Shown here in pieces: positions 73 through 18,122 of a stretch of DNA of 24,000 bases. A program made the position numbers and the translations under genes. Origin of the DNA: Gammaproteobacteria bacterium (GTDB taxonomy: Bacteria > Pseudomonadota > Gammaproteobacteria > Steroidobacterales > Woeseiaceae). The stretch's first letter is position 1; each line of letters starts with the position of its first letter. Location of the stretch: the NCBI GenBank assembly GCA_024640305.1, contig JAHEFG010000001.1:203476-227475 (forward strand), in the 5' to 3' direction. The notes beneath the pieces were generated by a model. The model was not told the origin of the DNA and did no database searches. It was given only the letters and a program-made list of their open reading frames with translations.

Positions 73-1662
73 ATGCTTCGAATTCGCCTGTCCCTGCTGC
101 TCGTCCTCTTCGTTTTTTGCCTTTCTGCTTGTGACAACCACAATGCAGTGCCCGAGGTTGCAGAATCTCCGGCGACCGAAGACGAGATCGTAACCCTGCT
201 CTTCACCAATGATGTCGAAAGTGCCTACGACCCGATCCCGGCGTTTTGGCTGGACGATATTTCAATGATCGGAGGGATTGCTGAAATAACAACCCTGATC
301 GAGTCTTTGCGCGAATCCGAACCAAACGTATTTCTGTTTGATTCAGGTGATATTTTCACGGGCGCGCTGGCGAAGCTCACGCTGGGTAAACTCGCTTTCG
401 AACTCATGATTACGATGGGCTACGACGCCATGGCTATCGGCAATCACGAATTCGAGTATGGCCACAGGATTTTTGCGTGGGAGAAGAACAGAGCGCCGTT
501 TCCGGTTCTCGGCGCCAACTTCTTCTACAAAGATACTGACCACCCCTACGCCCAGGCGCATGCGATTATCGAGCGCAATGGCCTGCGCATCGGCGTAATC
601 GGAATCATGGGCCAGGACGCCGTCTCCGCCATCATTCCGTCTTACATCGCCCCACTGGATGTCCGCGATCCGGCTGAGGCGGTTCGCAGGTCGGTTGCCG
701 AATTGCGAAACGAGGTGGATCTTATTGTCCTGCTTACACACCAGGGCAAGACTGCACCGATGCAAACCGACGCGGAATCGGACCCCAGACTACAGCGAGA
801 TATCGACGCTGATATCGCACTCGCGGGCGCTGTCGAAGGCATTGACGTCCTCTTCGCGGGACATGCCGATGCGGGAACACCAGAGCCGCTCGTTCACCCC
901 GAAACCGGAACGCTGATAATGCAGACATATGGGCAGGCAACGCATCTCGGCTATCTGCAACTCAGGCTGGACCGCGAGACCGGCGCCATTACAAGTTACG
1001 ACGGCAAACTGATCCCGGTCGAATCCTCGAAACTTGAGCCGGACCCGAGAATACTCGCCAAGTTAGAGCACTATCGGGACGAGAACGGAGAGATCATGGC
1101 GAAAGTGGGCGCAACAGAAGCCGCCATGATTCGCCGCTACATCGAGGAGTCGGATATCGGCAACCTGTTTGCCGATATTTTCGTGGAAGTCAGTGGTGCT
1201 GATATTGGGTTTGTGCATGGCGGCAGCCTGCGCAAGGACTTACCCAAAGGCGAAATTCGTCTCGTGGATATTCTCGACTCTTACCCGTTTGTCGACGATG
1301 TAAATGTGAAAGAAATGACTGGTGCGCAGATTCGACGCGCGCTGGAACAGTCGCTGACATTCGAGCGCGGGATGCTGCAACTATCGGGACTCGAGATGAT
1401 CTATGACCTGGATCAGCCCAGGTACAATCGGATTGTGTCGCTCAAGCGGAATGGTCAGCCGGTTGCTGATAGCGATCGCTTTACCGTAGCCGCGCCAGGG
1501 TTCCTGACCGAAGGTGGCGACCTTTACGACTCCTTTCCCGAATCTGAAGTGATGCAAAGTTTCGGCAAGGTTTCTGACGTCGTCATCGAACACTTTCGCA
1601 ATCGGGAAGTTGTCAGTCTGCCCAAACGCGGCCGGCAGCAAGAAACCGTAAAAAACCAGTAG
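73..1662 (+). CDS. Lipoprotein 5'-nucleotidase / metallophosphoesterase (UshA/CD73 family: calcineurin-like phosphoesterase domain plus 5'-nucleotidase C-terminal domain)
   Basis: ATG at 73. N-terminal signal peptide with a lipobox (LLLVLFVFCLSAC|DNH). Metallophosphatase motifs are present: SGDIFTG, GNHEFEYG, LLTHQG, FAGHAD. A C-terminal substrate-binding domain follows (GFVHGGSLRKDLP, FTVAAPGFLTEGGDLY). Motif I reads TNDVES, with Glu where the usual DxH His sits. Only 11 bp separate it from the next gene. Confidence 0.85.
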   Translation: MLRIRLSLLLVLFVFCLSACDNHNAVPEVAESPATEDEIVTLLFTNDVESAYDPIPAFWLDDISMIGGIAEITTLIESLRESEPNVFLFDSGDIFTGALAKLTLGKLAFELMITMGYDAMAIGNHEFEYGHRIFAWEKNRAPFPVLGANFFYKDTDHPYAQAHAIIERNGLRIGVIGIMGQDAVSAIIPSYIAPLDVRDPAEAVRRSVAELRNEVDLIVLLTHQGKTAPMQTDAESDPRLQRDIDADIALAGAVEGIDVLFAGHADAGTPEPLVHPETGTLIMQTYGQATHLGYLQLRLDRETGAITSYDGKLIPVESSKLEPDPRILAKLEHYRDENGEIMAKVGATEAAMIRRYIEESDIGNLFADIFVEVSGADIGFVHGGSLRKDLPKGEIRLVDILDSYPFVDDVNVKEMTGAQIRRALEQSLTFERGMLQLSGLEMIYDLDQPRYNRIVSLKRNGQPVADSDRFTVAAPGFLTEGGDLYDSFPESEVMQSFGKVSDVVIEHFRNREVVSLPKRGRQQETVKNQ

Positions 1663-1673
1663 CGAGAATTCTC

Positions 1674-2822
1674 ATGGCGGCGGGCGAACTCGAAATTCAG
1701 GCGGCAGTTGCGCGCAGCAGCGCTGAACCTTTTGTTACCGAGAAACTGTACTTGAAGGCCCCTGCGGCCAACGAAATACGGGTAAAGATCGTAGCTACGA
1801 GCGTGTGTCACACCGACTTAATGACCAAGGGCGAAGCGCTTTGTGAGTTTCCGATTGTTCTTGGCCACGAGGGTGCAGGAGTTGTCGATGCGCTGGGCGA
1901 TGAGGTCACGGAGTTTGATGTCGGGGATCATGTTGTCCTGAGTTACGATTATTGCGGTCGGTGTCGGCAGTGTAAAAATCACAAACCGTCATACTGTGAC
2001 AACCACGGCAGCTTGAATTTCGCCGGCACCCGAGCCAACGGGGACAAAACGCACCGTAGTCCGGATAGTGACGCAGCGGACGTGTTTGGCTCTTTCTTCC
2101 AGCAGTCATCATTCGCAACGTATGCGCTGAGCAATACCAGCAACACGATCAAGGTAGACAAGTCCCTGCCCTTGCCGTTGCTGGCACCGCTGGGCTGCGG
2201 TGTGCAGACCGGTGCTGGCACGGTCCTGAATACACTCCAGGTGCAGCCGGATACCAGTATCGTTGTGTTCGGCTGCGGCTGCGTTGGTCTTTCGGCGATT
2301 ATGGCCGCGAAAGTGGCTGGCGCGAAAAACATCGTGGCGGTGGATGTGAATCCGGCTCGCCTGCAAATGGCTCTCGATCTGGGTGCCAGCCACGCTCTCG
2401 CCCCTGGCGATTTTGCCGAGCCTGGATCAATCGTCGAGCATGTGAAGTCCATTTCGCAAGGCAACGGCTGCCAATACGCAATCGATACTACGGGTGCGCC
2501 CAGCATTCTCCGGCAGGCTTTCGATTGTTGTGGGCCGCTCGGTGTAACGGCGATGATTGCGCCAGGCGTGCCCGGTACGGAAGTCAGTATCGAGATGCTC
2601 GGCTTGCTGCCCGGCAAGTCGCTGCGCGGCGTTATACAAGGCGACTCAGTTTCCAAAACGTTCATACCCAAGCTCATTGAGCTATGGCAGGACGGACGGT
2701 TTCCTTTCGACAGGATGCTTACAAAATTTGCATCGATCGACAGCATTGAAGATGTCGCACAGGCAATGGGTCGCGGCGAGGTTATCAAGCCCGTCGTGAT
2801 TCTGGATCCCGAATTTGACTAA
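1674..2822 (+). CDS. Zn-dependent aryl-alcohol (benzyl-alcohol) dehydrogenase-like, XylB-type medium-chain dehydrogenase
   Basis: ATG at 1674. Motifs CHTDL, GHEGAGVV, the structural-zinc Cys cluster YCGRCRQCKNHKPSYC, FFQQSSFATYAL, PLGCGVQTGAGTV, and the Rossmann motif VVFGCGCVGLSAIMAA. It aligns along its whole length with my recollection of Pseudomonas XylB. Confidence 0.85.
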   Translation: MAAGELEIQAAVARSSAEPFVTEKLYLKAPAANEIRVKIVATSVCHTDLMTKGEALCEFPIVLGHEGAGVVDALGDEVTEFDVGDHVVLSYDYCGRCRQCKNHKPSYCDNHGSLNFAGTRANGDKTHRSPDSDAADVFGSFFQQSSFATYALSNTSNTIKVDKSLPLPLLAPLGCGVQTGAGTVLNTLQVQPDTSIVVFGCGCVGLSAIMAAKVAGAKNIVAVDVNPARLQMALDLGASHALAPGDFAEPGSIVEHVKSISQGNGCQYAIDTTGAPSILRQAFDCCGPLGVTAMIAPGVPGTEVSIEMLGLLPGKSLRGVIQGDSVSKTFIPKLIELWQDGRFPFDRMLTKFASIDSIEDVAQAMGRGEVIKPVVILDPEFD

Positions 2823-2826
2823 CTAC

Positions 2827-4275
2827 ATGAAACTAAATAACAAAGATCTGTTGCTGACCCATGGCTGGATCAACGCAGCGGAGGTTCGCTCGAAGCGACA
2901 ATTCGCTGTCGTGGATCCCGCCACGCGCACAGAAATCGCAATGGTCAGCGACCTTGACGCAACGCACGCTCAGCAAGCAATCGCCGCGGCAACCGCCGCC
3001 TATAGCGACTGGAAAACCGTGCCGTTGCAGGAACGGGTCGATACCGTTCTGCGCTGGGCGGAGCTGATTGAGGAAAATGCCGAAGACCTGGGCGTAATCA
3101 TTTCTGCGGAGAGTGGTAAGCCGCTGCGCGAGGCAAGTGGTGAATCGCTTCAATGCGCTGCGTTGTTACGTTGGTACGCCGACGAAATACAACGGTGGAA
3201 AGAAGACACCAGTCGCGCGCCGATCTCAGGTCAACAGAACTATACGATCAGGCAGCCCATCGGTGTTGTTGCCTGTATTACGCCGTGGAATTTTCCGGCC
3301 GCTGCGGTAATGGTGAAGGCCGGTGCCGCCATCCTTGCTGGCTGCACGACCATAATCAAACCATCCGACCTGACCCCACTTGTCGCCCTGGCATTGGCGC
3401 GCCTGTCTGCTGCCGCAAACCTGCCTGCCGGCGTTTTCAACGTGCTGCCCTGCGAAAACCCGACGCAGATCGGCGACGAGATTTGCAGGAACCCGAATGT
3501 GCGAATGCTTTCTTTTACCGGATCGACCCGCGTGGGCAAGTCCCTTTATAGCGCTTGCGGCGCTACCGTAAAGCGCCTCGCACTGGAATTGGGAGGCAAT
3601 GCGCCGTTCATAATTTTTGATGACGCTGATCTGGACCTGGCGATTGATGGTGCGCTTGGGGCCCGCTTTTATAACAGCGGCCAAATCTGCGTCGGCGCCA
3701 ATCGCTATTTTGTACACAGCAACATCTACGCGACGTTTGCAAGCCGGCTCGCAGAGCGTGTTAACGCGATGAAAGTTGGCAGCGGTTTCGACCCGTCGAG
3801 TGATATTGGCCCGATGATCAACCAGGCCGCGGTAGACCGGTTGACACATGTCATTGAAAGCGCGAGGGAAATGGGTGCCAAAGTACTTGCCGGCGGTGGT
3901 CAGGATGATGCGGCGACACTGTATTTCCAACCCACCGTATTGAGCGACATGACTCCCGACATGCCGGCTTATACGATCGAGATCTTTGGTCCTGTAGCCT
4001 GCCTTTACAAATTCGAAAGCGAAGATCAGGTCGTGACGCTTGCCAATGACACTGAGGCCGGCCTGGCCGCGTACGTCTACTCGCGCGATGCCAGCCGCCT
4101 CGCAAGAGTTAGCGAGGCGTTGGAGGCTGGTGTTGTCGGCGCGAACTCATGCGCAATCTTTTCCAACGACTTGCCGTTCGGCGGCATAAAGCAATCCGGC
4201 CTCGGCCGCGAGCATGGCTCCCAGGGGCTTGAGGAATACATCGAAACGAAAAGTATCTGCAAGGTGTCGCAATGA
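2827..4275 (+). CDS. NAD(P)+-dependent aldehyde dehydrogenase, succinate-semialdehyde dehydrogenase (GabD)-like
   Basis: The ORF track opens at TTG 2815, but ATG 2827 gives MKLNNKDLL..., matching the MKLN start of E. coli GabD. Motifs ITPWNFPAA, the catalytic Glu in LELGGNAPFIIFDDADLD, the catalytic Cys in NSGQICVGANR, and FGGIKQSGLGREHG. Its stop overlaps the next start (ATGA at 4272-4275). Confidence 0.85.
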   Translation: MKLNNKDLLLTHGWINAAEVRSKRQFAVVDPATRTEIAMVSDLDATHAQQAIAAATAAYSDWKTVPLQERVDTVLRWAELIEENAEDLGVIISAESGKPLREASGESLQCAALLRWYADEIQRWKEDTSRAPISGQQNYTIRQPIGVVACITPWNFPAAAVMVKAGAAILAGCTTIIKPSDLTPLVALALARLSAAANLPAGVFNVLPCENPTQIGDEICRNPNVRMLSFTGSTRVGKSLYSACGATVKRLALELGGNAPFIIFDDADLDLAIDGALGARFYNSGQICVGANRYFVHSNIYATFASRLAERVNAMKVGSGFDPSSDIGPMINQAAVDRLTHVIESAREMGAKVLAGGGQDDAATLYFQPTVLSDMTPDMPAYTIEIFGPVACLYKFESEDQVVTLANDTEAGLAAYVYSRDASRLARVSEALEAGVVGANSCAIFSNDLPFGGIKQSGLGREHGSQGLEEYIETKSICKVSQ

Positions 4276-4844
4276 CGATGGAACAGCAAAGCTGTCGCTC
4301 AGCCTGGATGCACATGAGTGCGGCCAGCAAGGGGCAACAAGTACGCAATTTCGTCCAGCTATTGGATATGAGCGACTACCTGGTCGAGACAGAGCTCTTT
4401 CCCAGGGAGGTGCTGGAGGCGTACAGCGCATTCAATATGGAAAAGGAAATTACCGCCGAGCATGCGCAGTATGTGAACGAGCAGCGGGGCGGCTCACAGG
4501 GCGATTATCGCGAAGGCATGGCGCGCAAGGTTGCAAACGTGGTGGATTGCCTGGTCCGCTATCCGCAATCAAAACGCGCGGTGATTACTGTTTGTAACGA
4601 GCCTATGCCTGACCACAGCGATGATACAAATGCCAAGTGCCTCCGCGAACTGCACCTCTACCTGGACGAGGAGAACAAGCTAAGCGGTACTGTGTTCTTC
4701 CGGGCTCAGGCAGCTTTTCTGTTTCCGAAAAATATTCACCTGGTCGGTTCGATAATGTCGGAGATAGCCCGACAGCTACCGCAACAACCGGCTTTGGGGA
4801 GCCTGTTCTACCTGGCAACGGTACTGGTGGCGGATCGAAGCTAG
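4272..4844 (+). CDS. Truncated thymidylate synthase / dCMP-hydroxymethylase-fold protein, function unknown
   Basis: By eye, residues 97-170 align to the ThyA catalytic core. YPQSKRAVITVCNE matches DPDSRRIIVSAWN. AKCLRELHLYLDEENKLSGTVFFRAQAAFL-FPKNIHLVGSIM matches [40 protein letters not shown]. The nucleophile Cys (C123, nt 4638-4640), the YQR Arg and the PFN Asn are retained. The GDTHLY segment, about 55 C-terminal residues and much of the N-terminal folate-binding region are missing (190 aa against about 264). It is translationally coupled to the upstream ALDH. Confidence 0.5.
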   Translation: MTMEQQSCRSAWMHMSAASKGQQVRNFVQLLDMSDYLVETELFPREVLEAYSAFNMEKEITAEHAQYVNEQRGGSQGDYREGMARKVANVVDCLVRYPQSKRAVITVCNEPMPDHSDDTNAKCLRELHLYLDEENKLSGTVFFRAQAAFLFPKNIHLVGSIMSEIARQLPQQPALGSLFYLATVLVADRS

Positions 4845-4860
4845 GCTGTACGAGCCACCG

Positions 4861-5790
4861 TCAAACTCTCTCCTCGACACCATTCAGGTCGCACATAGCG
4901 CCTAATGCGATACTGATGGCGCTCTCTATGCTGGCCGTGTAATCGAGAATTGCTGTGCTGGCTGTCGGTTTGCTGATGATGGGACATATGGTGCCAACCA
5001 GGCAGCCTAAATGGCCGGCAACATGAAACAGTAAGCTTGACTCCATTTCCATATTGACGACTCTTTGTTCCTGTACCCGCAGAGCAGAGAGCTGTGTCTT
5101 GATGGACGGGATTGTATTCGCAAGCCCCTCTATGTATCGACTGGACGGCCCGTAGAAACCCGGTGTCGCTGCAGTGATCCCGGTAACGTAATCGACATTC
5201 AGAAATTTCGCGCGTTCAACCAGTGCGGCCGCTACGCCCGGCGAGGCCTTGGAGGCATAAGGGATTATTTTGCTTCTAAACCTGGAGCCCTCCGCCGTTG
5301 AGTTCACAAGTATCTCAAATGCTTGCTGCTCAATTTCAGTGACGACCTGGTCCGCTGGCGGATGGTCGTAGTATAAACCGGCATTATCCAGGCCCAACGC
5401 ATAAGTCGATATCGCCATCGTTCCGGGTTCGATATTTTCCTGGGTTCCTGCGGAGGTTCCGATGCGGATAAATTTCAGCGGCGCTGTTCCCGACTGATAC
5501 TCGCTACTGTCAAGATCGAAGGCATGCACCGCGTATGCCTCCACCAGCGCGATTTCGACGTTATCGACTCCGATGCCGGTGCCAATAACAGAAACCGGCA
5601 CGCCCTTGTAACTACCTGTAAAAGTGACGTATTCGCGGTGTCTTACTTCGGCACTCACAGTATCGAAGCGCTTCGCCACCCGCACCGCCCGAGCCGGGTC
5701 GCCCACCAGGAAAACATTTGCAGCCAGCTGCCCCCTGGTCAGACCAAGATGCAAAACCTTGCCGTCAATGACTACGATCTCTGATTTCAT
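4861..5790 (-). CDS. Nucleoside phosphorylase, uridine phosphorylase (Udp)-like (PNP_UDP_1 family), long variant
   Basis: ATG at 5790. LHLGLTRGQLAANVFLVGDPARAVRVAKRFD, HREYVTFTGSYKGVPVSVIGTGIG, FIRIGTSAGTQ and NMEMESSLL correspond to E. coli Udp FHLGLTKNDL..VPGDPDRV, HREFTTW..GKPVIVCSTGIG, FLRIGTTGAIQ and NYEMESATL. At 309 aa against about 253, it carries two insertions. It is convergent with the TS-fold gene, 16 bp apart. Confidence 0.8.
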   Translation of the reverse strand: MKSEIVVIDGKVLHLGLTRGQLAANVFLVGDPARAVRVAKRFDTVSAEVRHREYVTFTGSYKGVPVSVIGTGIGVDNVEIALVEAYAVHAFDLDSSEYQSGTAPLKFIRIGTSAGTQENIEPGTMAISTYALGLDNAGLYYDHPPADQVVTEIEQQAFEILVNSTAEGSRFRSKIIPYASKASPGVAAALVERAKFLNVDYVTGITAATPGFYGPSSRYIEGLANTIPSIKTQLSALRVQEQRVVNMEMESSLLFHVAGHLGCLVGTICPIISKPTASTAILDYTASIESAISIALGAMCDLNGVEERV

Positions 5791-12801: not shown

Positions 12802-14244
12802 GTGAAAAATACTCCAGGAATTGTTGCGCTTCTTGTCGTTTCCGCGGCCATGTTCGCTTGCTCACCGCAAGAAGATGCGCTTCCAACCGCAACGGTCACG
12901 CAAGCGGCAAATCAGATCGATCTGATCGTCAACGGCGACTACATAGTGACGATGGATGATGCCGCCACTGTCCATGCAGGCGCGGCTGTCGCCATCGATC
13001 AGGGCGTTATTATCGCCATCGGGCCGGCCGCCGAAATTGCCGCAAACTACAGCGCAAGTGAGACTCTCGACGGCCAGGGTCGCGTCGTGATGCCCGGCCT
13101 GGTCAACGGCCACTCGCACGCAGCCATGACTTTGCTTCGCGGCGTCGCCGACGACCTCGCGCTGATGGACTGGCTGACGAATTACATTTTTCCCGCCGAA
13201 GTAGAATTCGTCGATGCAGAGTTTGTTCGCATTGGCACCGAGCTGGCTTGCTGGGAAATGATTCGCGGCGGCACAACCACATTCGTCGACATGTATTACT
13301 ACCCTGACGTGATCGCTGATGTGGTCGAAAAGTGCGGCATGCGTGCCCTGGTCTCGGCGACCGTAATCGATCAACGCAGCCCCGATGCCGAGAGCGCTGT
13401 CGATTCCATTCAGAAGGGCAAAGAATTCGTCAATCGCTGGCAAGGCAGGAACAGTCGCATTTCGCCCATATTCGGGCCGCATGCCAATTACACGCTGAAC
13501 GCAGAACAGTTGCGTGCAACGCGGGCGGCGGCAACCGAGGCCGGCGTACCGGTCAGCATTCACATGTCGGAGTCGCCGTTCGAAGTACAGTATTCAAAAG
13601 ATACCTTCGGCGTGACAAGCATCGAGCTTTTCGAGTCCATCGGCTTTTTCGACGGACCAACAATTGGGGCGCATGTCGTTTGGCCGACCGAGGCCGAAAT
13701 ATCGATCCTCGCCAAGCGCAACGTCGGCGTTATTCATAATCCAACCTCGAACATGAAAATTGCTTCGGGCATTGCACCTGTCACCGATATGCTGGCTGCC
13801 GGAGTCAGGGTGGGTCTCGGTACGGATGGAGCAGCCAGTAATAACGATCTCGATATGTGGGAAGAAATGCGACTCGCATCTTTCCTGCAGAAAGTGGAAC
13901 AAATGAACCCGGAGGTTCTTCCAGCGGCCACTGTATTGCGCATGGCTACTATCGGTGGGGCTACTGCGATCGGGCTCGGCGAATCTATTGGTTCCCTGGA
14001 GGTTGGCAAACGCGCCGATCTTATCCAGGTCGCGTTTGACGATGTTCACCATGTTCCAACCTACGATGTGATTTCTCACCTCGTCTACGTCACTGATGAG
14101 CAGGACGTCGCCTCGGTTGTTGTCGATGGCACACTGCTGATGCGCGACAAAGAATTCCTGACAATTGATACAGAGCGCGTAGCCGAAGAGGCCCGGACTC
14201 TGGCCGCGAATATTAAACGTGCGCTGGAAGAGAGAAACCGCTGA
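12802..14244 (+). CDS. Amidohydrolase-superfamily deaminase-like enzyme (MtaD / TrzA-AtzA / guanine-deaminase-like subgroup), probable lipoprotein
   Basis: Motifs VMPGLVNGHSHAAMTLLRG (HxH metal motif), SIHMSES, HVVW, HNPTSNMKIASG and GLGTDGAASNN (the catalytic Asp region). The start is ambiguous among TTG 12784, GTG 12802 and ATG 12850. GTG 12802 gives MKNTPGIVALLVVSAAMFAC|SPQ, a signal peptide with a lipobox-like Cys. ATG 12850 would give a cytoplasmic protein. Confidence 0.8.
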   Translation: MKNTPGIVALLVVSAAMFACSPQEDALPTATVTQAANQIDLIVNGDYIVTMDDAATVHAGAAVAIDQGVIIAIGPAAEIAANYSASETLDGQGRVVMPGLVNGHSHAAMTLLRGVADDLALMDWLTNYIFPAEVEFVDAEFVRIGTELACWEMIRGGTTTFVDMYYYPDVIADVVEKCGMRALVSATVIDQRSPDAESAVDSIQKGKEFVNRWQGRNSRISPIFGPHANYTLNAEQLRATRAAATEAGVPVSIHMSESPFEVQYSKDTFGVTSIELFESIGFFDGPTIGAHVVWPTEAEISILAKRNVGVIHNPTSNMKIASGIAPVTDMLAAGVRVGLGTDGAASNNDLDMWEEMRLASFLQKVEQMNPEVLPAATVLRMATIGGATAIGLGESIGSLEVGKRADLIQVAFDDVHHVPTYDVISHLVYVTDEQDVASVVVDGTLLMRDKEFLTIDTERVAEEARTLAANIKRALEERNR

Positions 14245-14675
14245 TGTTGCGTAATGGTTTGGCAATCGTTATTGGCATCATTACGGCATTCGTCACGGTA
14301 ATGCTCATCGATAAGGTCGGGCACATGGTTTACCCCATACCTGCCGGCCTCGACCTCACTGATCCGGACGCGATACGCCCCTACCTCGCAACGCTGCCAG
14401 TCGGTGCGATTTTATTCGTCCTGGCATCGTCCGTAGTCGCCGCTTTTGATGGCACTCTCATTGCCTGCTTGATCGGCAACATGAAGGCGCGCGTATCTGG
14501 CTCCGTGGTTGGCGGTTTTGTTTTTGCAGCGTCAGTCGCTAACTTCATTGCCATTCCGCATCCGCTCTGGTTGGCGCTCGCGACACTGGCGGGCGTGGTC
14601 CTGAGTACCTTGCTGGCGATGCGCCTGGCAATCGCGATTAGCGGAACCCAACCCCGTGACGGCAATCCAGGATAA
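14244..14675 (+). CDS. Small integral membrane protein (about 4 TM segments), function unknown
   Basis: Its ATG overlaps the amidohydrolase stop by 1 nt (TGATG). There are four hydrophobic segments: AIVIGIITAFVTVMLI, VGAILFVLASSVVAAF, VVGGFVFAASVANFIAI and LALATLAGVVLSTLLAM. I recognise no family motifs. Confidence 0.6.
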   Translation: MLRNGLAIVIGIITAFVTVMLIDKVGHMVYPIPAGLDLTDPDAIRPYLATLPVGAILFVLASSVVAAFDGTLIACLIGNMKARVSGSVVGGFVFAASVANFIAIPHPLWLALATLAGVVLSTLLAMRLAIAISGTQPRDGNPG

Positions 14676-15126: not shown

Positions 15127-16326
15127 CTAAAGAAAATTCGTGCCGTAGTCCATTGGCGGCAGATCAAAAAACGTCGCGATACTCTGGCCAATATCGGCAA
15201 AGGTCTTGCGCTTACCCAAGGCACCGGCAGTAACACCTGCGCCATACGCCAACACCGGAATGTGTTCGCGAGTGTGGTCAGAGCCGGGCCACGTTGGGTC
15301 GCAACCGTGGTCGGCACACAGGAACAGCACATCGTCATCCTGCATGATGTCCAGCAACTCCGGAAGACGCTGGTCAAAGTACTCCAGTGCCTTTGCGTAG
15401 CCGTCTACGTCGCGTCGGTGGCCGAACAACATGTCGAAGTCGACGAAGTTGGTGAATACGATAGTGCGATCTCCGGCGGCACGCATTTCATCCAGCGTCG
15501 CATCGAAAAGCGCTGCATTGCCCGTCGCCTTGATTTTCTTCGTAATGCCCCGGTGCGCGTAGATATCGGCGATCTTGCCAACACTTACGACATCGCCGCC
15601 ACTGGCTACCAGCTTGTCCAGCACGGTATCTGCATGTGGTGGAGTCGTGAGGTCACGGCGATTGCCCGTACGAACATAAGTATCAGGACCGTCGCCAACG
15701 AACGGTCGCGCAATCACTCGACCGATGTTGTACTCGTCTACAAGCTCTCTCGCGATGTCGCAAAGGTCATAAAGGCGTTGCAGACCGAATGACTCTTCAT
15801 GGCATGCAATCTGAAACACGCTGTCGGCGGACGTATAGAAAATCGGCTTACCTGACGCTACATGCTCATCACCAAGTTCCTGAATAATTGTTGTTCCCGA
15901 CGCGTGGCAGTTGCCAAGATACCCCGGCAATTGCGCACGAGACACCAACTTATCGAGTAACTCCTGCGGAAAGGTATTCGTTTTTCCGGTGAAGTAGCCC
16001 CAATCGAATAACACCGGGACACCTGCAATTTCCCAGTGTCCACTGGGTGTGTCCTTGCCACTCGAAAGCTCTTCGGCAAAACCATAGGCACCGACAATGT
16101 CAGTGTCGGTATCTACACCAGCGGGAAACTCGCCCGAGCTATCACGGCCTGCGTGGAACAAACCGAGTTTGGCAAGGTTCGGCAAACGCAACGGGCCAGC
16201 TGGTGAAGCTGCACGTTGCTCCGCGATGTGCCCCAGAGTGTTTGCCCCCACATCACCGAACCGCTCGGCATCAGCCGTTGCGCCGATGCCGAAGGAATCA
16301 AGTACCAGAATTATTGCTCTGCCCAT
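15127..16326 (-). CDS. deoB: Phosphopentomutase
   Basis: ATG at 16326. [36 protein letters not shown] is the classic DeoB N-terminus. Alkaline-phosphatase-superfamily metal motifs are present ([39 protein letters not shown]). Confidence 0.93.
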
Positions 16327-16762: not shown

Positions 16763-17434
16763 TTACCAGAGATAGAAAAATGCGAAAATGAATACCCAGA
16801 CGAGGTCAACGAAATGCCAGTACAGACCCGTGATCTCAACGATTTCGTAGTTGCCACCCCGCCGCTCATAGAAACCGTTACGCACGCGGTTAGCTACGAC
16901 GAGTAGATAGATGACACCGGCCGACACGTGCAGTCCGTGGAAACCCGTGATCATGAAGAAACTGGACCCGAATTGCGCAGCACCAAATGGATTGCCCCAT
17001 GGGCGCACGCCCTCCATTATTAGCTTTGTCCACTCGAACGCCTGCATGCCGACGAATGATGCGCCGAGCGCTGCTGTTGCAACCATAAGCCAGAACGTTT
17101 TCTTGCGATCTTTGCGATAGCCCATGTTCACGGCCATCGCCATAGTGCCCGATGACGTAATAAGAATGAACGTCATGATGGCGATCAAGATCAGCGGGAT
17201 CGGGTCACCACCAAATGACAGAGCAAAGACCTCACTCGGCAGCGGCCACGGATCGGTCGTTGATATACGCACCGACATATAGCCCACAAGGAAGCAACTG
17301 AAGATGAATGTGTCACTGAGCAGGAATATCCACATCATCGCCTTGCCCCACGGGACGCCAAACACCTGCTTGTCCCTGGAGAAGTCGTTGACGATGGTAT
17401 TCGCGTCGCCCGCTTCCACTACCGCTTCTGACAT
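16763..17434 (-). CDS. Cytochrome c oxidase subunit III
   Basis: FFMITGFHGLHVSAGVIYL and LYWHFVDLVWVFIFAFFYLW are subunit III signatures. The ORF track starts at TTG 17446. ATG 17434 (MSEAVVEAG...) is preferred. Confidence 0.85.
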   Translation of the reverse strand: MSEAVVEAGDANTIVNDFSRDKQVFGVPWGKAMMWIFLLSDTFIFSCFLVGYMSVRISTTDPWPLPSEVFALSFGGDPIPLILIAIMTFILITSSGTMAMAVNMGYRKDRKKTFWLMVATAALGASFVGMQAFEWTKLIMEGVRPWGNPFGAAQFGSSFFMITGFHGLHVSAGVIYLLVVANRVRNGFYERRGGNYEIVEITGLYWHFVDLVWVFIFAFFYLW

Positions 17435-17462
17435 AGTTAACCCCAAATCAAATCGACAGCAC

Positions 17463-18122
17463 TCAAGTCGATATCATCAAACCAAACAAGACTAGCCACA
17501 CGAGCAACAGGAAATGCCAATAAATTGTGCAAAGTTCGACGCTTTGCCTGACAGCATCATTGTCGCCACCCATCGCTTTCGTCGTCGCACGTGCCCAGAC
17601 ATACAAACCACCCAGAATATGCAGGCCGTGCAGCCCCGTTAACAGGTAGAAGAATGCGGCTGACGGGTTGCTCGTTAAGTAATGCCCTGTAGCGGTCAAT
17701 TGCTGCCAGGCAATTAGTTGCCCCACCAGAAACCCGACGGTCAGCAACCCTGTTAATAACAGGCCCGGCACCAGTGACGACGCATCGCGCCGCATCGCTT
17801 TGTTGCGGGTCCACTGCAAAGTAGCACTCGCCAGCACAAGCGCGCCCGTATTTACCCAGAGTAGTTGCGGCTCGGTCAGTGGCACCCAATCGCCAAGGTC
17901 CATGCGCAGCGAATACGCACTGAGGATGAGCGCGAAGAACGACGTAATTACTGCAAGCAGCGTCGTTAGCGCGACCAACTTCGGCCCTGCGTTAAACGGC
18001 GCCTGGTGGTCGGCGTCCGGAGTCACTTCTGCTACCCACGGCTGCGTATTGAATGACTGCCGAAGTATCCACCCCAGTAGTGCGGCGAGCATTGTCGCCA
18101 ATACGATTAGGCCGATTTCCAC
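17463..18122 (-). CDS. Second haem-copper oxidase subunit III-family protein (CoxO/CoxP-like paralogue)
   Basis: GTG start overlapping the subunit I stop (TAGTG). FFYLLTGLHGLHILGGLYVW and IYWHFLLLVWLVLFG are subunit III signatures. Five TM segments. Confidence 0.75.
   Translation of the reverse strand: MEIGLIVLATMLAALLGWILRQSFNTQPWVAEVTPDADHQAPFNAGPKLVALTTLLAVITSFFALILSAYSLRMDLGDWVPLTEPQLLWVNTGALVLASATLQWTRNKAMRRDASSLVPGLLLTGLLTVGFLVGQLIAWQQLTATGHYLTSNPSAAFFYLLTGLHGLHILGGLYVWARATTKAMGGDNDAVRQSVELCTIYWHFLLLVWLVLFGLMIST

What the first reader, a model, noticed from the sequence alone, without database searches (positions are those of the whole stretch)
4272..4844. Truncated thymidylate-synthase-fold protein that keeps the nucleophilic Cys but lacks the folate-side and C-terminal elements
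The core aligns with ThyA across the SRR..WN strand, the catalytic Cys segment (AKCLRELHLY against [10 protein letters not shown]), the KLS..YQRS segment (KLSGTVFFRA) and the PFNI segment (PKNI). The pyrimidine-activating machinery therefore appears retained: the Cys nucleophile, a phosphate-binding Arg and the Asn that reads the uracil face.

The protein is only 190 aa. It replaces GDTHLY with ATVLVA and lacks the C-terminal tail that closes over the folate. A TS-fold enzyme without a folate site could catalyse Cys-dependent chemistry at C5/C6 of a pyrimidine nucleotide. Possibilities include exchange, or removal or hydration of a C5 substituent, rather than methyl transfer. Its ATGA coupling to an aldehyde dehydrogenase is not a context known for thyA.
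Basis: partly seen in the sequence, partly recalled or inferred. Interest (0 to 1): 0.7.

Follow-up and report, generated by a model that had tools for sequence, protein, structure and literature searches.

The report
Short thymidylate-synthase-like enzyme, new family
This 190-residue protein is an intact, widely conserved, stripped-down relative of thymidylate synthase that keeps the catalytic cysteine but has lost the folate site. Its gene neighbours suggest it removes an oxidised one-carbon group from uracil in an undescribed bacterial thymine/5-hydroxymethyluracil-to-uracil pathway.

Summary
ORF 4272-4844 (+) is intact, overlaps the upstream aldehyde dehydrogenase (ALDH) stop as ATGA, and belongs to the thymidylate synthase (TS) superfamily. 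The evidence is Foldseek E 1e-9 and TM 0.8 to MilA, and a family profile that hits phage dCMP hydroxylase at 1e-11, MilA at 1e-10 and ThyA at about 1e-3.

It is not a pseudogene. More than 545 homologues of about 190 aa exist in four bacterial phyla and in protists. C123, R144, N154 and K101/R102 are invariant. The folate residues are replaced (D169 to Ala, F176 to Lys) and the last ~55 residues of ThyA are absent.

Context is the new information:
- An ALDH lies directly upstream in 37 of 51 loci.
- The ALDH is preceded by a Zn-ADH or an unannotated 2OG oxygenase.
- A thymine-7-hydroxylase-like dioxygenase is adjacent in seven loci and fused in one.
- Nucleoside transporters, phosphorylases, nucleotidases and URC uracil-degradation genes flank the module.

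Best reading (about 0.45): a cofactor-free, Cys-dependent 5-carboxyuracil nucleot(s)ide decarboxylase, a non-homologous analogue of fungal iso-orotate decarboxylase. Function is inferred, not shown. I found no paper describing it.

The parts
4272..4844 (+). TS-like ORF, 190 aa: a compact, folate-site-less member of the thymidylate synthase/dCMP hydroxymethylase superfamily
   Evidence: ORF. More than 545 homologues. Model pLDDT 88. Foldseek match to MilA, AfhB and ThyA. Profile against PDB at E 1e-11.
4572..4577 (+). K101-R102 ('SKRA'), equivalent to ThyA R126'/R127', which bind the nucleotide phosphate from the partner subunit
   Evidence: Invariant and aligned to R126/R127. In the tandem fusion P0153 only the otherwise degenerate second domain keeps SKRA, and the catalytic first domain lacks it. 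This implies action in trans across a TS-like dimer.
4635..4649 (+). K122-C123-L124-R125-E126: the catalytic-Cys motif 'KCxRE' (ThyA has P-C146-H-A-F)
   Evidence: C123 is invariant; K122, R125 and E126 are at least 90% conserved. Aligned to C146. The TGC codon at 4638-4640 was read.
4701..4712 (+). R144-A145-Q146-A147, equivalent to ThyA R166-S167-C168-D169. The Arg is kept; the folate-contacting Asp is replaced by Ala.
4725..4733 (+). P152-K153-N154, equivalent to ThyA P175-F176-N177. The Asn is kept (uracil type, not the Asp of cytosine-specific relatives). The folate-stacking Phe is replaced by an invariant Lys.
   Evidence: K153 and N154 are invariant. The N177 (uracil) versus Asp (cytosine) rule is taken from PMC13326640.
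4833..4841 (+). D188-R189-S190, the C-terminus, at the position of ThyA Y209-S210-N211. Everything after it in ThyA is absent.
   Evidence: R189 is at least 90% conserved. The register comes from extending the alignment, together with the end of the alignments.
2815..4275 (+). NAD(P)-dependent aldehyde dehydrogenase (related to succinate-semialdehyde dehydrogenase but below that family's cut-off), translationally coupled to the TS-like gene
   Evidence: Pfam Aldedh at 1.5e-159. SSADH subfamily 537 bits against a cut-off of 646. An orthologue lies directly upstream in 37 of 51 loci, 17 of them with overlapping stop and start.
1674..2822 (+). Zn-dependent alcohol dehydrogenase (class-III-like, below all equivalog cut-offs), overlapping the ALDH start
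   Evidence: An orthologue lies upstream of the ALDH in the window plus 22 loci, from Woeseiaceae and Acidimicrobiales.
73..1662 (+). UshA-type 5'-nucleotidase with a lipoprotein signal (…CLSAC)
   Evidence: Pfam 5_nucleotid_C and Metallophos; NCBIfam UshA-like. The lipobox was read from the translation. It is a neighbour in 13 loci.
4861..5790 (-). Divergent uridine-phosphorylase-like nucleoside phosphorylase, convergent with the TS-like gene (16-nt gap)
   Evidence: PNP_UDP_1. TIGR01718 113 bits against a cut-off of 280. Found in 12 loci. Three PNP_UDP_1 paralogues flank the TS-like gene in Anaerolineae loci L042 and L045.
5841..7640 (+). PfkB sugar/nucleoside kinase fused to a Q_salvage (DUF2419)-like domain. 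It may supply or process the nucleoside 5'-monophosphate.
   Evidence: Pfam PfkB and Q_salvage, 30.7 bits against a gathering score of 25. Found in 9 loci.

Best explanation
The ORF encodes a dimeric, folate-independent enzyme of the thymidylate synthase superfamily that acts on a uracil nucleotide or nucleoside carrying an oxidised one-carbon group at C5. My committed reading is that it is a 5-carboxy-uracil nucleot(s)ide decarboxylase.

Proposed pathway (inferred):
- A 5-hydroxymethyluracil compound is the input. It either comes from scavenged DNA or is made from thymine/thymidine by a 2OG dioxygenase.
- The Zn-ADH (or the dioxygenase) oxidises it to the 5-formyl compound.
- The coupled ALDH oxidises that to the 5-carboxy compound.
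- The TS-like enzyme removes the carboxyl group, giving a plain uracil compound.
- The product goes to nucleoside phosphorylase and phosphopentomutase or, in other genomes, to URC uracil degradation.

Proposed mechanism (inferred, by analogy with TS chemistry):
- C123 adds to C6 of the ring, as C146 does in ThyA.
- C5 is protonated. Y79 and E126 are candidate proton donors. This yields a beta-keto-acid-like 5,6-dihydro adduct.
- The adduct loses CO2.
- Beta-elimination of the Cys restores the uracil ring.
- N154 reads O4/N3-H.
- R144, together with K101/R102 from the partner subunit, holds the 5'-phosphate or another anionic group.
- The family-specific cations K122, R125 and K153 occupy the former folate side and would bind the C5 carboxylate.

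Shown here: fold, homology, residue conservation, loss of folate elements, gene context and gene fusions. Inferred: the substrate, its phosphorylation state and the reaction.
For: Fold and active site:
- The fold is a TS fold, with invariant Cys, Arg, Asn and a trans Lys-Arg pair.
- Asn at the N177 position indicates uracil rather than cytosine.
- The folate contacts D169 and F176 are replaced by Ala and an invariant Lys, and the closing C-terminus is absent.
- Three conserved cationic residues next to the Cys and Asn have no counterpart in ThyA, MilA or AfhB.

Context:
- An ALDH orthologue lies immediately upstream on the same strand in 37 of 51 loci from Gammaproteobacteria, Acidimicrobiia and Myxococcota. 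In 17 loci its stop overlaps the TS-like start. The ALDH product, a carboxylic acid, is therefore the natural substrate.
- The ALDH is preceded by the Zn-ADH in 23 loci.
- In 12 loci it is instead preceded by an unannotated protein (F9) whose model is a prolyl-hydroxylase-type 2OG oxygenase with an invariant HxD…H…R motif.
- A DIOX_N/2OG-FeII_Oxy dioxygenase is fused to the TS-like domains in P0153, lies immediately downstream in five Woeseiaceae loci, and is adjacent in L037 and L050. Among PDB chains of named function, fungal thymine dioxygenase (T7H) is its best match for the P0153 and Microbulbifer proteins and second for the L012 protein.
- In Microbulbifer bruguierae and a Cellvibrionaceae MAG the operon F9-ALDH-TSL-NupC sits beside cytidine deaminase. 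It also sits beside homologues of URC1 (GTP_CH_N + GTP_cyclohydro2), URC4 (DUF1688) and UPRTase. In Microbulbifer a uridine kinase-like gene follows as well.
- Woeseiaceae loci add a YjjG noncanonical-pyrimidine nucleotidase, a secreted exonuclease, a 5'-nucleotidase, a UP-like phosphorylase and DeoB.

Chemical precedent:
- Thiols and Cys-dependent DNA C5-methyltransferases decarboxylate 5-carboxycytosine in vitro.
- Fungi end the same thymine-to-uracil route with iso-orotate decarboxylase (PMC8409474; PMC8187880).
Against: - No biochemical data exist.
- The dioxygenase neighbours are only ~30% identical to T7H and score similarly against ethylene-forming enzyme and an uncharacterised oxygenase.
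- Fourteen of 51 loci, mostly Chloroflexi, have no ALDH next to the gene.
- The nearest solved relatives use flavin (9iqu, 9iqc), so a cofactor cannot be excluded.
- The window itself has no dioxygenase, only ADH and ALDH.
- Whether the substrate is a base, a nucleoside or a nucleotide is unresolved. NupC operons carry no kinase, yet phosphate-type Lys/Arg residues are conserved.
- I could not inspect model coordinates, so the placement of K122, R125 and K153 in the pocket is inferred from sequence register only.
Confidence: 0.45

Rival explanations
1. It is a 5-hydroxymethyl-(d)U(MP) lyase. Cys addition at C6 is followed by a retro-aldol step that releases formaldehyde, the reverse of a folate-free hydroxymethylation. 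The neighbouring ADH and ALDH then serve to oxidise the formaldehyde.
For: The same fold, Cys and Asn evidence applies. The ADH resembles class III/formaldehyde-type Zn-ADHs at E 1e-68 to 1e-73. An oxygenase-ALDH-TSL triad could also read as hydroxylate, cleave, detoxify. From my own knowledge, DNA C5-methyltransferases reversibly add and remove aldehydes at C5.
Against: The ADH scores far below every formaldehyde-dehydrogenase cut-off (229 against 544 bits), and no S-formylglutathione hydrolase was seen. A detoxifying ALDH would not be expected to be the most tightly and widely coupled partner. The invariant extra cations K122, R125 and K153 fit an anionic group better than a neutral hydroxymethyl.
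Confidence: 0.15
2. It is a 5-formyl-uracil nucleot(s)ide deformylase. Cys addition is followed by hydration and C-C cleavage that releases formate.
For: Thiol-mediated deformylation of 5-formylcytosine is known in vitro (PMC8409474). An ADH or an oxygenase could supply the aldehyde.
Against: This makes the ALDH, the most conserved partner at 37 of 51 loci, redundant or even competing.
Confidence: 0.07
3. It is a flavin-dependent C5 oxygenase like the phage 5-hydroxy-dCMP synthases, acting here on a uracil nucleotide. One possibility is an oxidative decarboxylation or hydroxylation.
For: The nearest solved relatives by sequence profile are the flavin-binding 9iqu and 9iqc (E 1.2e-11), which are also among the top fold matches. 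They are equally short at the C-terminus.
Against: The diagnostic D169N and N177D substitutions of those enzymes (PMC13326640) are not present; this family has Ala147 and Asn154. The context is catabolic and ALDH-coupled rather than a phage DNA-modification cassette. No flavin reductase was seen nearby.
Confidence: 0.08
4. The ADH and ALDH (or a 2OG oxygenase) oxidise the sugar 5'-CH2OH of a pyrimidine nucleoside to a 5'-carboxylate. The TS-like protein binds that uronic-acid nucleoside through its former phosphate site and carries out some other C5/C6 chemistry.
For: The phosphate-type residues K101, R102 and R144 are conserved, although operons with a nucleoside transporter contain no kinase. 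From my own knowledge, 2OG oxygenases that make uridine-5'-aldehyde exist.
Against: It gives the catalytic Cys no obvious role. It does not explain the fusion and adjacency to T7H-like dioxygenases or the link to uracil degradation.
Confidence: 0.07
5. It is a decayed thyA pseudogene, a chance ORF, or an ordinary thymidylate synthase.
For: Some JGI records label homologues 'thymidylate synthase'.
Against: There are hundreds of intact homologues of conserved length with invariant motifs, in four bacterial phyla and in protists. The folate-binding residues and the C-terminus are missing. No Pfam hit was found, and NCBIfam ThyA scored 13 bits against a cut-off of 327.
Confidence: 0.01

Closest known systems
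Thymidylate synthase ThyA (EC 2.1.1.45, Pfam PF00303)
   Same: Same fold. Conserved nucleophilic Cys (C146/C123), R166/R144, N177/N154 and R126'R127'/K101R102. A dimeric active site is implied by the complementary tandem fusion.
   Different: About 75 residues shorter. D169 is replaced by Ala and F176 by Lys. The W80/W83 region, H207/Y209 and the C-terminal 55 residues are absent. It scores below all family thresholds. It is ALDH-coupled and sits in catabolic nucleoside clusters.
MilA CMP 5-hydroxymethylase and T4 dCMP hydroxymethylase
   Same: MilA is the best structural match (TM 0.8, E 1e-9) and a profile hit at 1e-10. The 'SKRAVI' motif is shared.
   Different: Those enzymes are folate-dependent, 246-340 aa long and cytosine-specific, with Asp at the N177 position. 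This family has Asn and no folate site.
Phage flavin-dependent 5-hydroxy-dCMP synthases (HY126 AfhB, PDB 9iqu/9iqc; RB69 gp48)
   Same: Nearest solved relatives by sequence (E 1.2e-11). Similarly compact (217-238 aa), ending soon after the last core strand, and folate-independent (PMC13326640).
   Different: Their signature is D169N plus N177D and a P-C motif. This family has A147, N154 and K-C-x-R-E. They are viral and biosynthetic; this family is cellular and catabolic. Flavin use here is untested.
[quoted passage not shown]
   Same: The proposed overall chemistry is the same: thymine to 5-hydroxymethyl-, 5-formyl- and 5-carboxyuracil, then uracil. T7H-like dioxygenases are fused or adjacent to the family. 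The pathway is described in PMC8187880.
   Different: IDCase is a Mn/Zn amidohydrolase-fold enzyme acting on the free base and is unrelated in fold. Here NAD(P)-dependent ADH and ALDH appear to take over oxidation steps, and the substrate may be a nucleoside or nucleotide.
DNA cytosine-C5 methyltransferases acting as 5-carboxycytosine decarboxylases in vitro
   Same: The proposed mechanism is the same: Cys addition at C6 enables loss of the C5 carboxyl (PMC8409474).
   Different: They have an unrelated Rossmann fold and a DNA substrate, and the decarboxylation is a side activity.

Membership tests
Thymidylate synthase ThyA (PF00303 / NCBIfam PRK01827) | Scores above the curated family threshold | tested here: not met
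   No Pfam hit at E<=0.01. NCBIfam ThyA 13.2 bits against a cut-off of 327. Only a distant family member, P0240, passes Pfam's gathering score.
Thymidylate synthase ThyA (PF00303 / NCBIfam PRK01827) | TS alpha/beta fold | tested here: met
   Model pLDDT 88. Foldseek probability 1.0 to ThyA chains with TMq 0.62-0.68, and 0.8 to MilA.
Thymidylate synthase ThyA (PF00303 / NCBIfam PRK01827) | Catalytic Cys (C146), R166, N177 and R126'/R127' | tested here: met
   C123, R144, N154 and K101/R102 are invariant in 34 diverse members and align to the ThyA residues.
Thymidylate synthase ThyA (PF00303 / NCBIfam PRK01827) | Methylene-tetrahydrofolate site: D169, F176, the W80/W83 segment and the C-terminal tail that closes over the cofactor | tested here: not met
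   D169 is replaced by A147 and F176 by K153. The protein ends at the equivalent of ThyA ~211. The region N-terminal of the aligned core is ~25 residues shorter than in ThyA, and no W80/W83 counterpart could be aligned.
Thymidylate synthase ThyA (PF00303 / NCBIfam PRK01827) | H207/Y209 contacts to the deoxyribose 3'-OH | tested here: not met
   The aligned positions are V186 and D188 (register extended; conservation).
dCMP/CMP hydroxymethylases (T4 gp42, MilA) | Asp at the N177 position (cytosine specificity) and a folate site | tested here: not met
   N154 is invariant. The rule comes from PMC13326640. The folate residues are missing, as above.
Flavin-dependent 5-hydroxy-dCMP synthases (AfhB / RB69 gp48) | D169N signature together with N177D | tested here: not met
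   A147 and N154 occupy those positions. The signature comes from PMC13326640.
Flavin-dependent 5-hydroxy-dCMP synthases (AfhB / RB69 gp48) | Bound flavin cofactor | not testable with these tools
   This needs purified protein (UV-visible spectrum, HPLC of the released cofactor).
Iso-orotate decarboxylase (amidohydrolase superfamily): functional analogy only | Amidohydrolase fold with a His3/Asp metal site | tested here: not met
   The fold is TS-like. IDCase features are described in PMC8187880. Any shared function would be by non-homologous replacement.
Iso-orotate decarboxylase (amidohydrolase superfamily): functional analogy only | Decarboxylates 5-carboxyuracil to uracil | not testable with these tools
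   Requires an enzyme assay.

The most novel reading that the evidence does not exclude
A cofactor-free, cysteine-dependent pyrimidine C5-decarboxylase built on the thymidylate synthase scaffold, in effect TS chemistry run as a demethylation end-step. It would complete a previously unrecognised thymine/5-hydroxymethyluracil-to-uracil pathway in bacteria and protists, made of an oxygenase or ADH, an ALDH and the TS-like enzyme. That pathway would feed uracil salvage or URC degradation and would replace fungal IDCase non-homologously.
Probability: 0.45. Interest if true: 0.85.

Novelty: new variant of a known kind. Interest (0 to 1): 0.75.

Why it matters
If the reading is right, several things follow:
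- It would add a new reaction class, folate-free removal of a C5 carbon, to one of the best-studied enzyme folds.
- It would define the missing last step of a bacterial route that turns thymine or 5-hydroxymethyluracil nucleosides into uracil. That would explain how URC-type organisms and sediment bacteria that scavenge nucleic acids could use T- and hmU-rich DNA, for example from dinoflagellates or phages (that such DNA is hmU-rich is from my own knowledge).
- It would be a natural, dedicated example of the Cys-at-C6 decarboxylation mechanism. That mechanism has long been discussed for the still unidentified 5-carboxycytosine decarboxylase of active DNA demethylation (PMC8409474).
- It would provide a small enzyme for enzymatic removal or detection of 5-carboxy pyrimidines.

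Even if the exact reaction differs, the family is a large, unannotated clade with a clear active site. Cultured hosts are available (Halioxenophilus aromaticivorans KU68F, Microbulbifer bruguierae), so the question can be tested directly.

Tried and rejected
- Single-sequence searches were uninformative. Pfam gave nothing. phmmer against PDB gave only chance hits to DNA polymerase beta and acireductone dioxygenase.
- Alignment A2 was too diverse for the search for related loci, so A1 was used instead.
- F9 gave no Pfam, NCBIfam or PDB sequence hit. It was resolved only by structure prediction.
- Genes downstream of ADH-ALDH-TSL in Acidimicrobiales are not conserved and were dropped as context. 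They include a PLP decarboxylase, malic enzyme, a TPP enzyme and hydantoinase.
- The C-terminal half of the PfkB fusion has no PDB sequence relative.
- Rfam found no RNA element in the window.
- Eight literature searches found no paper on this family, on a TS-fold decarboxylase, or on a bacterial thymine-to-uracil oxidative pathway. The library is incomplete, so prior description elsewhere cannot be excluded.
- Rejected readings: pseudogene, canonical ThyA, cytosine-specific hydroxymethylase and AfhB-type hydroxylase (see the membership tests).
- My first automatic neighbour clustering merged the T7H-like genes with the TS-like family, because the P0153 fusion links the two. This was corrected.
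Full report
**1. The observation**

The window contains an intact 190-codon ORF at 4272..4844 on the + strand. Its ATG overlaps the TGA of the upstream aldehyde dehydrogenase (ALDH) gene (2815..4275) in the sequence caATGAcg. I read the codons for K101-R102, K122-C123, R144, K153-N154 and D188-R189 directly from the DNA. Base composition is unremarkable, with GC about 0.55 throughout.

**2. Homology and fold**

Single-sequence searches are almost silent:
- Pfam gave no hit.
- NCBIfam matched ThyA at E 0.041 over residues 84-167.
- phmmer against PDB gave only chance hits.

The protein nevertheless has more than 545 homologues at E<=1e-3 in a 5.8-billion-protein set. Nearly all are 188-195 aa and come from Woeseiaceae and other Gammaproteobacteria MAGs. 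Some are labelled 'thymidylate synthase' by JGI and most are labelled hypothetical.

An exhaustive profile search of 1.84 billion cluster representatives found only 182 representatives. None of the 150 best listed has the length and architecture of canonical ThyA. The family is therefore compact and discrete.

Three lines of evidence settle homology to the thymidylate synthase (TS) superfamily:
- A profile of 34 members down to 26% identity hits the phage HY126 dCMP hydroxylase (9iqu/9iqc) at E 1.2e-11, MilA at 1.2e-10 and dozens of ThyA chains at 1e-4 to 3e-3.
- A distant member, P0240, passes Pfam's Thymidylat_synt gathering score.
- The AlphaFold2 model (pLDDT 88.2, pTM 0.88) matches MilA (E 1e-9, TM 0.8), the HY126 hydroxylase, E. 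coli ThyA and T4 dCMP hydroxymethylase with probability 1.0. Viral predicted structures give the same fold at 17% identity or less.

**3. What is kept and what is lost**

hhalign against E. coli ThyA and the HMM alignments give a consistent register:

| This family | E. coli ThyA |
|---|---|
| K101/R102 | R126/R127 |
| C123 | C146 |
| R144-A145-Q146-A147 | R166-S167-C168-D169 |
| P152-K153-N154 | P175-F176-N177 |
| C-terminal V186-A-D188-R189 | H207-L-Y209-S210 |

- Across 34 diverse members, Y51, N55, G77, K101, R102, C123, R144, K153, N154 and G176 are invariant. K122, R125, E126, Q146, A147, R189 and the RGGxQGDY motif are at least 90% conserved.
- The nucleophile, the Arg beside it, the trans Lys-Arg pair and the uracil-reading Asn are all retained.
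- Asn rather than Asp at this position marks uracil specificity in this superfamily (PMC13326640).
- The folate contacts D169 and F176 are replaced. H207 and Y209 are gone, and the chain stops about 55 residues before the ThyA C-terminus.
- Family-specific cationic residues (K122, R125, K153) flank the Cys and the Asn.

A metagenomic tandem fusion, P0153, is informative. Its first TS-like domain keeps the Cys, RAQA, PKN, RGGxQGDY and the C-terminal Arg, but lacks SKR. Its second domain is otherwise degenerate and keeps SKRA. This is the pattern expected if K101/R102 complete the partner's active site across a TS-type dimer.

**4. Genomic context**

I gathered 51 loci in total: the window, five loci from exact-protein look-ups, 44 species-representative genomes and Microbulbifer bruguierae. 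The organisms are:
- Woeseiaceae, Halieaceae and Cellvibrionaceae, including the cultured Halioxenophilus aromaticivorans KU68F and Halioxenophilus sp. WMMB6
- Acidimicrobiales
- Archangium
- Anaerolineales

EukProt records also show members in Paulinella and Mantamonas.

The ALDH and the enzymes upstream of it:
- An orthologue of the window's ALDH lies immediately upstream on the same strand in 37 of 51 loci. The stop and start overlap in 17, the gap is 30 nt or less in 14, and it is 31-125 nt in 6.
- The Zn-ADH lies upstream of the ALDH in 23 loci.
- In 12 loci the ALDH is instead preceded by a 270-aa protein with no Pfam, NCBIfam or PDB sequence match. Its model (pLDDT 91.5) is a prolyl-hydroxylase-type 2OG-Fe(II) oxygenase with an invariant H137-x-D139…H209…R218 motif. 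I call this protein F9.

A second dioxygenase type (DIOX_N/2OG-FeII_Oxy) appears in three arrangements:
- It is fused to the TS-like domains in P0153.
- It lies immediately downstream of the TS-like gene in five Woeseiaceae species.
- It lies next to the operon in a Cellvibrionaceae MAG and in Microbulbifer.

Against PDB, fungal thymine dioxygenase (T7H, 5c3p) ranks first for the P0153 domain (E 1.3e-23), third for the Microbulbifer protein (E 1e-31) and second for the L012 protein (E 3e-38). Ethylene-forming enzyme and an uncharacterised oxygenase score similarly or better for the last two.

Nucleoside-related neighbours:
- a NupC-type nucleoside transporter
- a YjjG noncanonical-pyrimidine nucleotidase
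- a lipoprotein 5'-nucleotidase
- a secreted exonuclease
- an adenosine-deaminase-like protein
- a uridine-phosphorylase-like enzyme
- a PfkB kinase fused to a Q_salvage-like domain
- phosphopentomutase
- in Anaerolineae, three PNP_UDP_1 paralogues

In Microbulbifer and the Cellvibrionaceae MAG the operon F9-ALDH-TSL-NupC sits beside cytidine deaminase. It also sits beside homologues of URC1 (GTP_CH_N + GTP cyclohydrolase II), URC4 (DUF1688) and UPRTase. In Microbulbifer a uridine kinase-like gene follows as well. From my own knowledge (Andersen et al. 2008), these are the genes of the URC uracil-degradation route of yeasts.

**5. Interpretation**

The recurring module is one oxidising enzyme (ADH or 2OG oxygenase), then the ALDH, then the TS-like protein. 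It is embedded in pyrimidine nucleoside uptake and catabolism.

The fungal thymidine salvage pathway converts thymine through 5-hydroxymethyl-, 5-formyl- and 5-carboxyuracil to uracil, using T7H and the amidohydrolase-fold iso-orotate decarboxylase (PMC8187880). The bacterial module looks like the same route with different parts.

The tight coupling to the ALDH makes the carboxylic acid the most economical substrate for the TS-like enzyme. The chemistry is straightforward for this active site:
- Cys addition at C6 and protonation at C5 generate a beta-keto-acid-like adduct.
- The adduct loses CO2.
- The Cys then leaves.

Thiols and Cys-dependent DNA C5-methyltransferases perform the analogous decarboxylation of 5-carboxycytosine in vitro (PMC8409474). 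The invariant Lys/Arg residues placed where ThyA binds folate would suit a carboxylate.

I give this reading about 0.45. The broader statement is that this is a folate-independent TS-fold enzyme removing an oxidised C1 unit from a uracil compound. I rate that at about 0.7.

In the window itself there is no dioxygenase. The input there would be a hydroxymethyl compound, for example 5-hydroxymethyl-deoxyuridine from scavenged DNA. The upstream region is cut off by the window edge. In the closest relative, L006, it holds a PhyH dioxygenase, a YjjG nucleotidase and a secreted exonuclease.

**6. Rivals**

- Release of formaldehyde from the 5-hydroxymethyl compound, with ADH and ALDH as detoxifiers (0.15). 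The ADH is class-III-like but far below the cut-offs.
- Deformylation of the 5-formyl compound (0.07). This would make the ALDH redundant.
- A flavin-dependent reaction as in the nearest solved relatives (0.08). Their D169N/N177D signature is absent.
- Chemistry on a nucleoside oxidised at the sugar 5' carbon (0.07).
- Pseudogene, chance ORF or ordinary ThyA (about 0.01). These are refuted.

The phosphorylation state of the substrate is open. Phosphate-type residues are conserved, and kinases (PfkB, uridine kinase) or UPRTase occur in several clusters. However, the NupC operons carry no kinase of their own.

**7. Novelty**

The family has no Pfam or NCBIfam model. Eight full-text searches found no description of it, of a TS-fold decarboxylase, or of a bacterial oxidative thymine-to-uracil pathway. 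The library is incomplete, so this is absence of evidence only.

A short, folate-independent TS fold now has a precedent in the phage 5-hydroxy-dCMP synthases. I therefore file this as a new variant of a known kind rather than categorically new. The predicted reaction and pathway would nevertheless be new.

**8. Limits**

- Model coordinates could not be inspected, so pocket geometry is inferred from sequence register.
- Two fold libraries were unavailable.
- ORF calling in the loci was mechanical (stop to stop). High-GC loci produced spurious antisense ORFs, which I filtered by homology.

Noticed in passing
window 5841-7640 (+): A 599-aa fusion of a PfkB-family kinase (N-terminal) with a Q_salvage/DUF2419-like domain (residues 323-449, 30.7 bits against a gathering score of 25). 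It is conserved next to the module in 9 loci. By analogy with pseudouridine kinase plus glycosidase, it could be a modified-nucleoside kinase fused to a nucleotide N-glycosidase. The C-terminal half has no PDB sequence relative.
   Followed up: partly
window 10197-11063 (-) and 11035-12687 (-): A YjjW-type radical-SAM activase and a YjjI-like glycyl radical enzyme of unknown function (PF11230, E 4e-206) sit next to the nucleoside-catabolism genes and a LysR regulator. From my memory, E. coli yjjI/yjjW lie beside the deo operon, so a nucleoside-related role may be worth testing.
   Followed up: no
window 12784-14244 (+), 14244-14675 (+), 15127-16326 (-): A TRZ/ATZ-family aminohydrolase, an unannotated 143-aa ORF with no Pfam or NCBIfam hit, and phosphopentomutase DeoB. 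The aminohydrolase scores 488 bits, just under the cut-off of 540, and is related to 5'-deoxyadenosine/MTA deaminases. The three genes travel together in L011-L014.
   Followed up: partly
window 7691-9196 (+): A second, divergent ALDH (Aldedh E 7e-46, weak matches to semialdehyde dehydrogenases). Among the loci examined it is found only here and in the closest relative, L006.
   Followed up: no
L004 1274-3508 (protein P0153, 744 aa): A natural fusion of two TS-like domains with a T7H-like 2OG dioxygenase. The two TS-like domains are complementary: the first has the catalytic residues but no SKR, and the second has SKRA but no catalytic residues. An ALDH lies just upstream on the same 4.4-kb contig.
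   Followed up: yes
L050 8001-16822 (Microbulbifer bruguierae CP118605.1) and L037: A bacterial cluster that combines F9 oxygenase-ALDH-TS-like-NupC with a T7H-like dioxygenase and cytidine deaminase. It also holds homologues of the yeast URC uracil-degradation genes URC1, URC4/DUF1688 and UPRTase, plus a uridine kinase-like gene in L050. I found no paper describing a bacterial URC cluster of this kind.
   Followed up: partly
L036 7595-8440 and 11 other loci (family F9; proteins P0271-P0352): A ~273-aa protein family with no Pfam, NCBIfam or PDB sequence match. Its predicted structure is a prolyl-hydroxylase-type 2OG-Fe(II) oxygenase (invariant EHFDGEY…RHxVP), and it always lies directly upstream of ALDH-TS-like. 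It could be a thymidine or thymine hydroxylase.
   Followed up: yes
L042 3-2917 and L045 (Anaerolineae): The TS-like gene is flanked by three paralogous PNP_UDP_1 nucleoside phosphorylase genes and an MFS transporter, with no ALDH. This is an independent link to nucleosides, and it shows the ALDH coupling is not universal.
   Followed up: partly
proteins P0123-P0125, P0135, P0138, P0139, P0147: These are eukaryotic-looking members with long low-complexity or transit-peptide-like N-terminal extensions and insertions. EukProt records assign P0147 to Paulinella micropora and P0124 to Mantamonas plastica.
   Followed up: partly
window 16763-17446 (-) and 17463-18122 (-): Two adjacent COX3-family genes lie downstream of COX1 and a COX2-cytochrome c fusion. 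This is an unusual duplicated subunit III arrangement and is unrelated to the finding.
   Followed up: no
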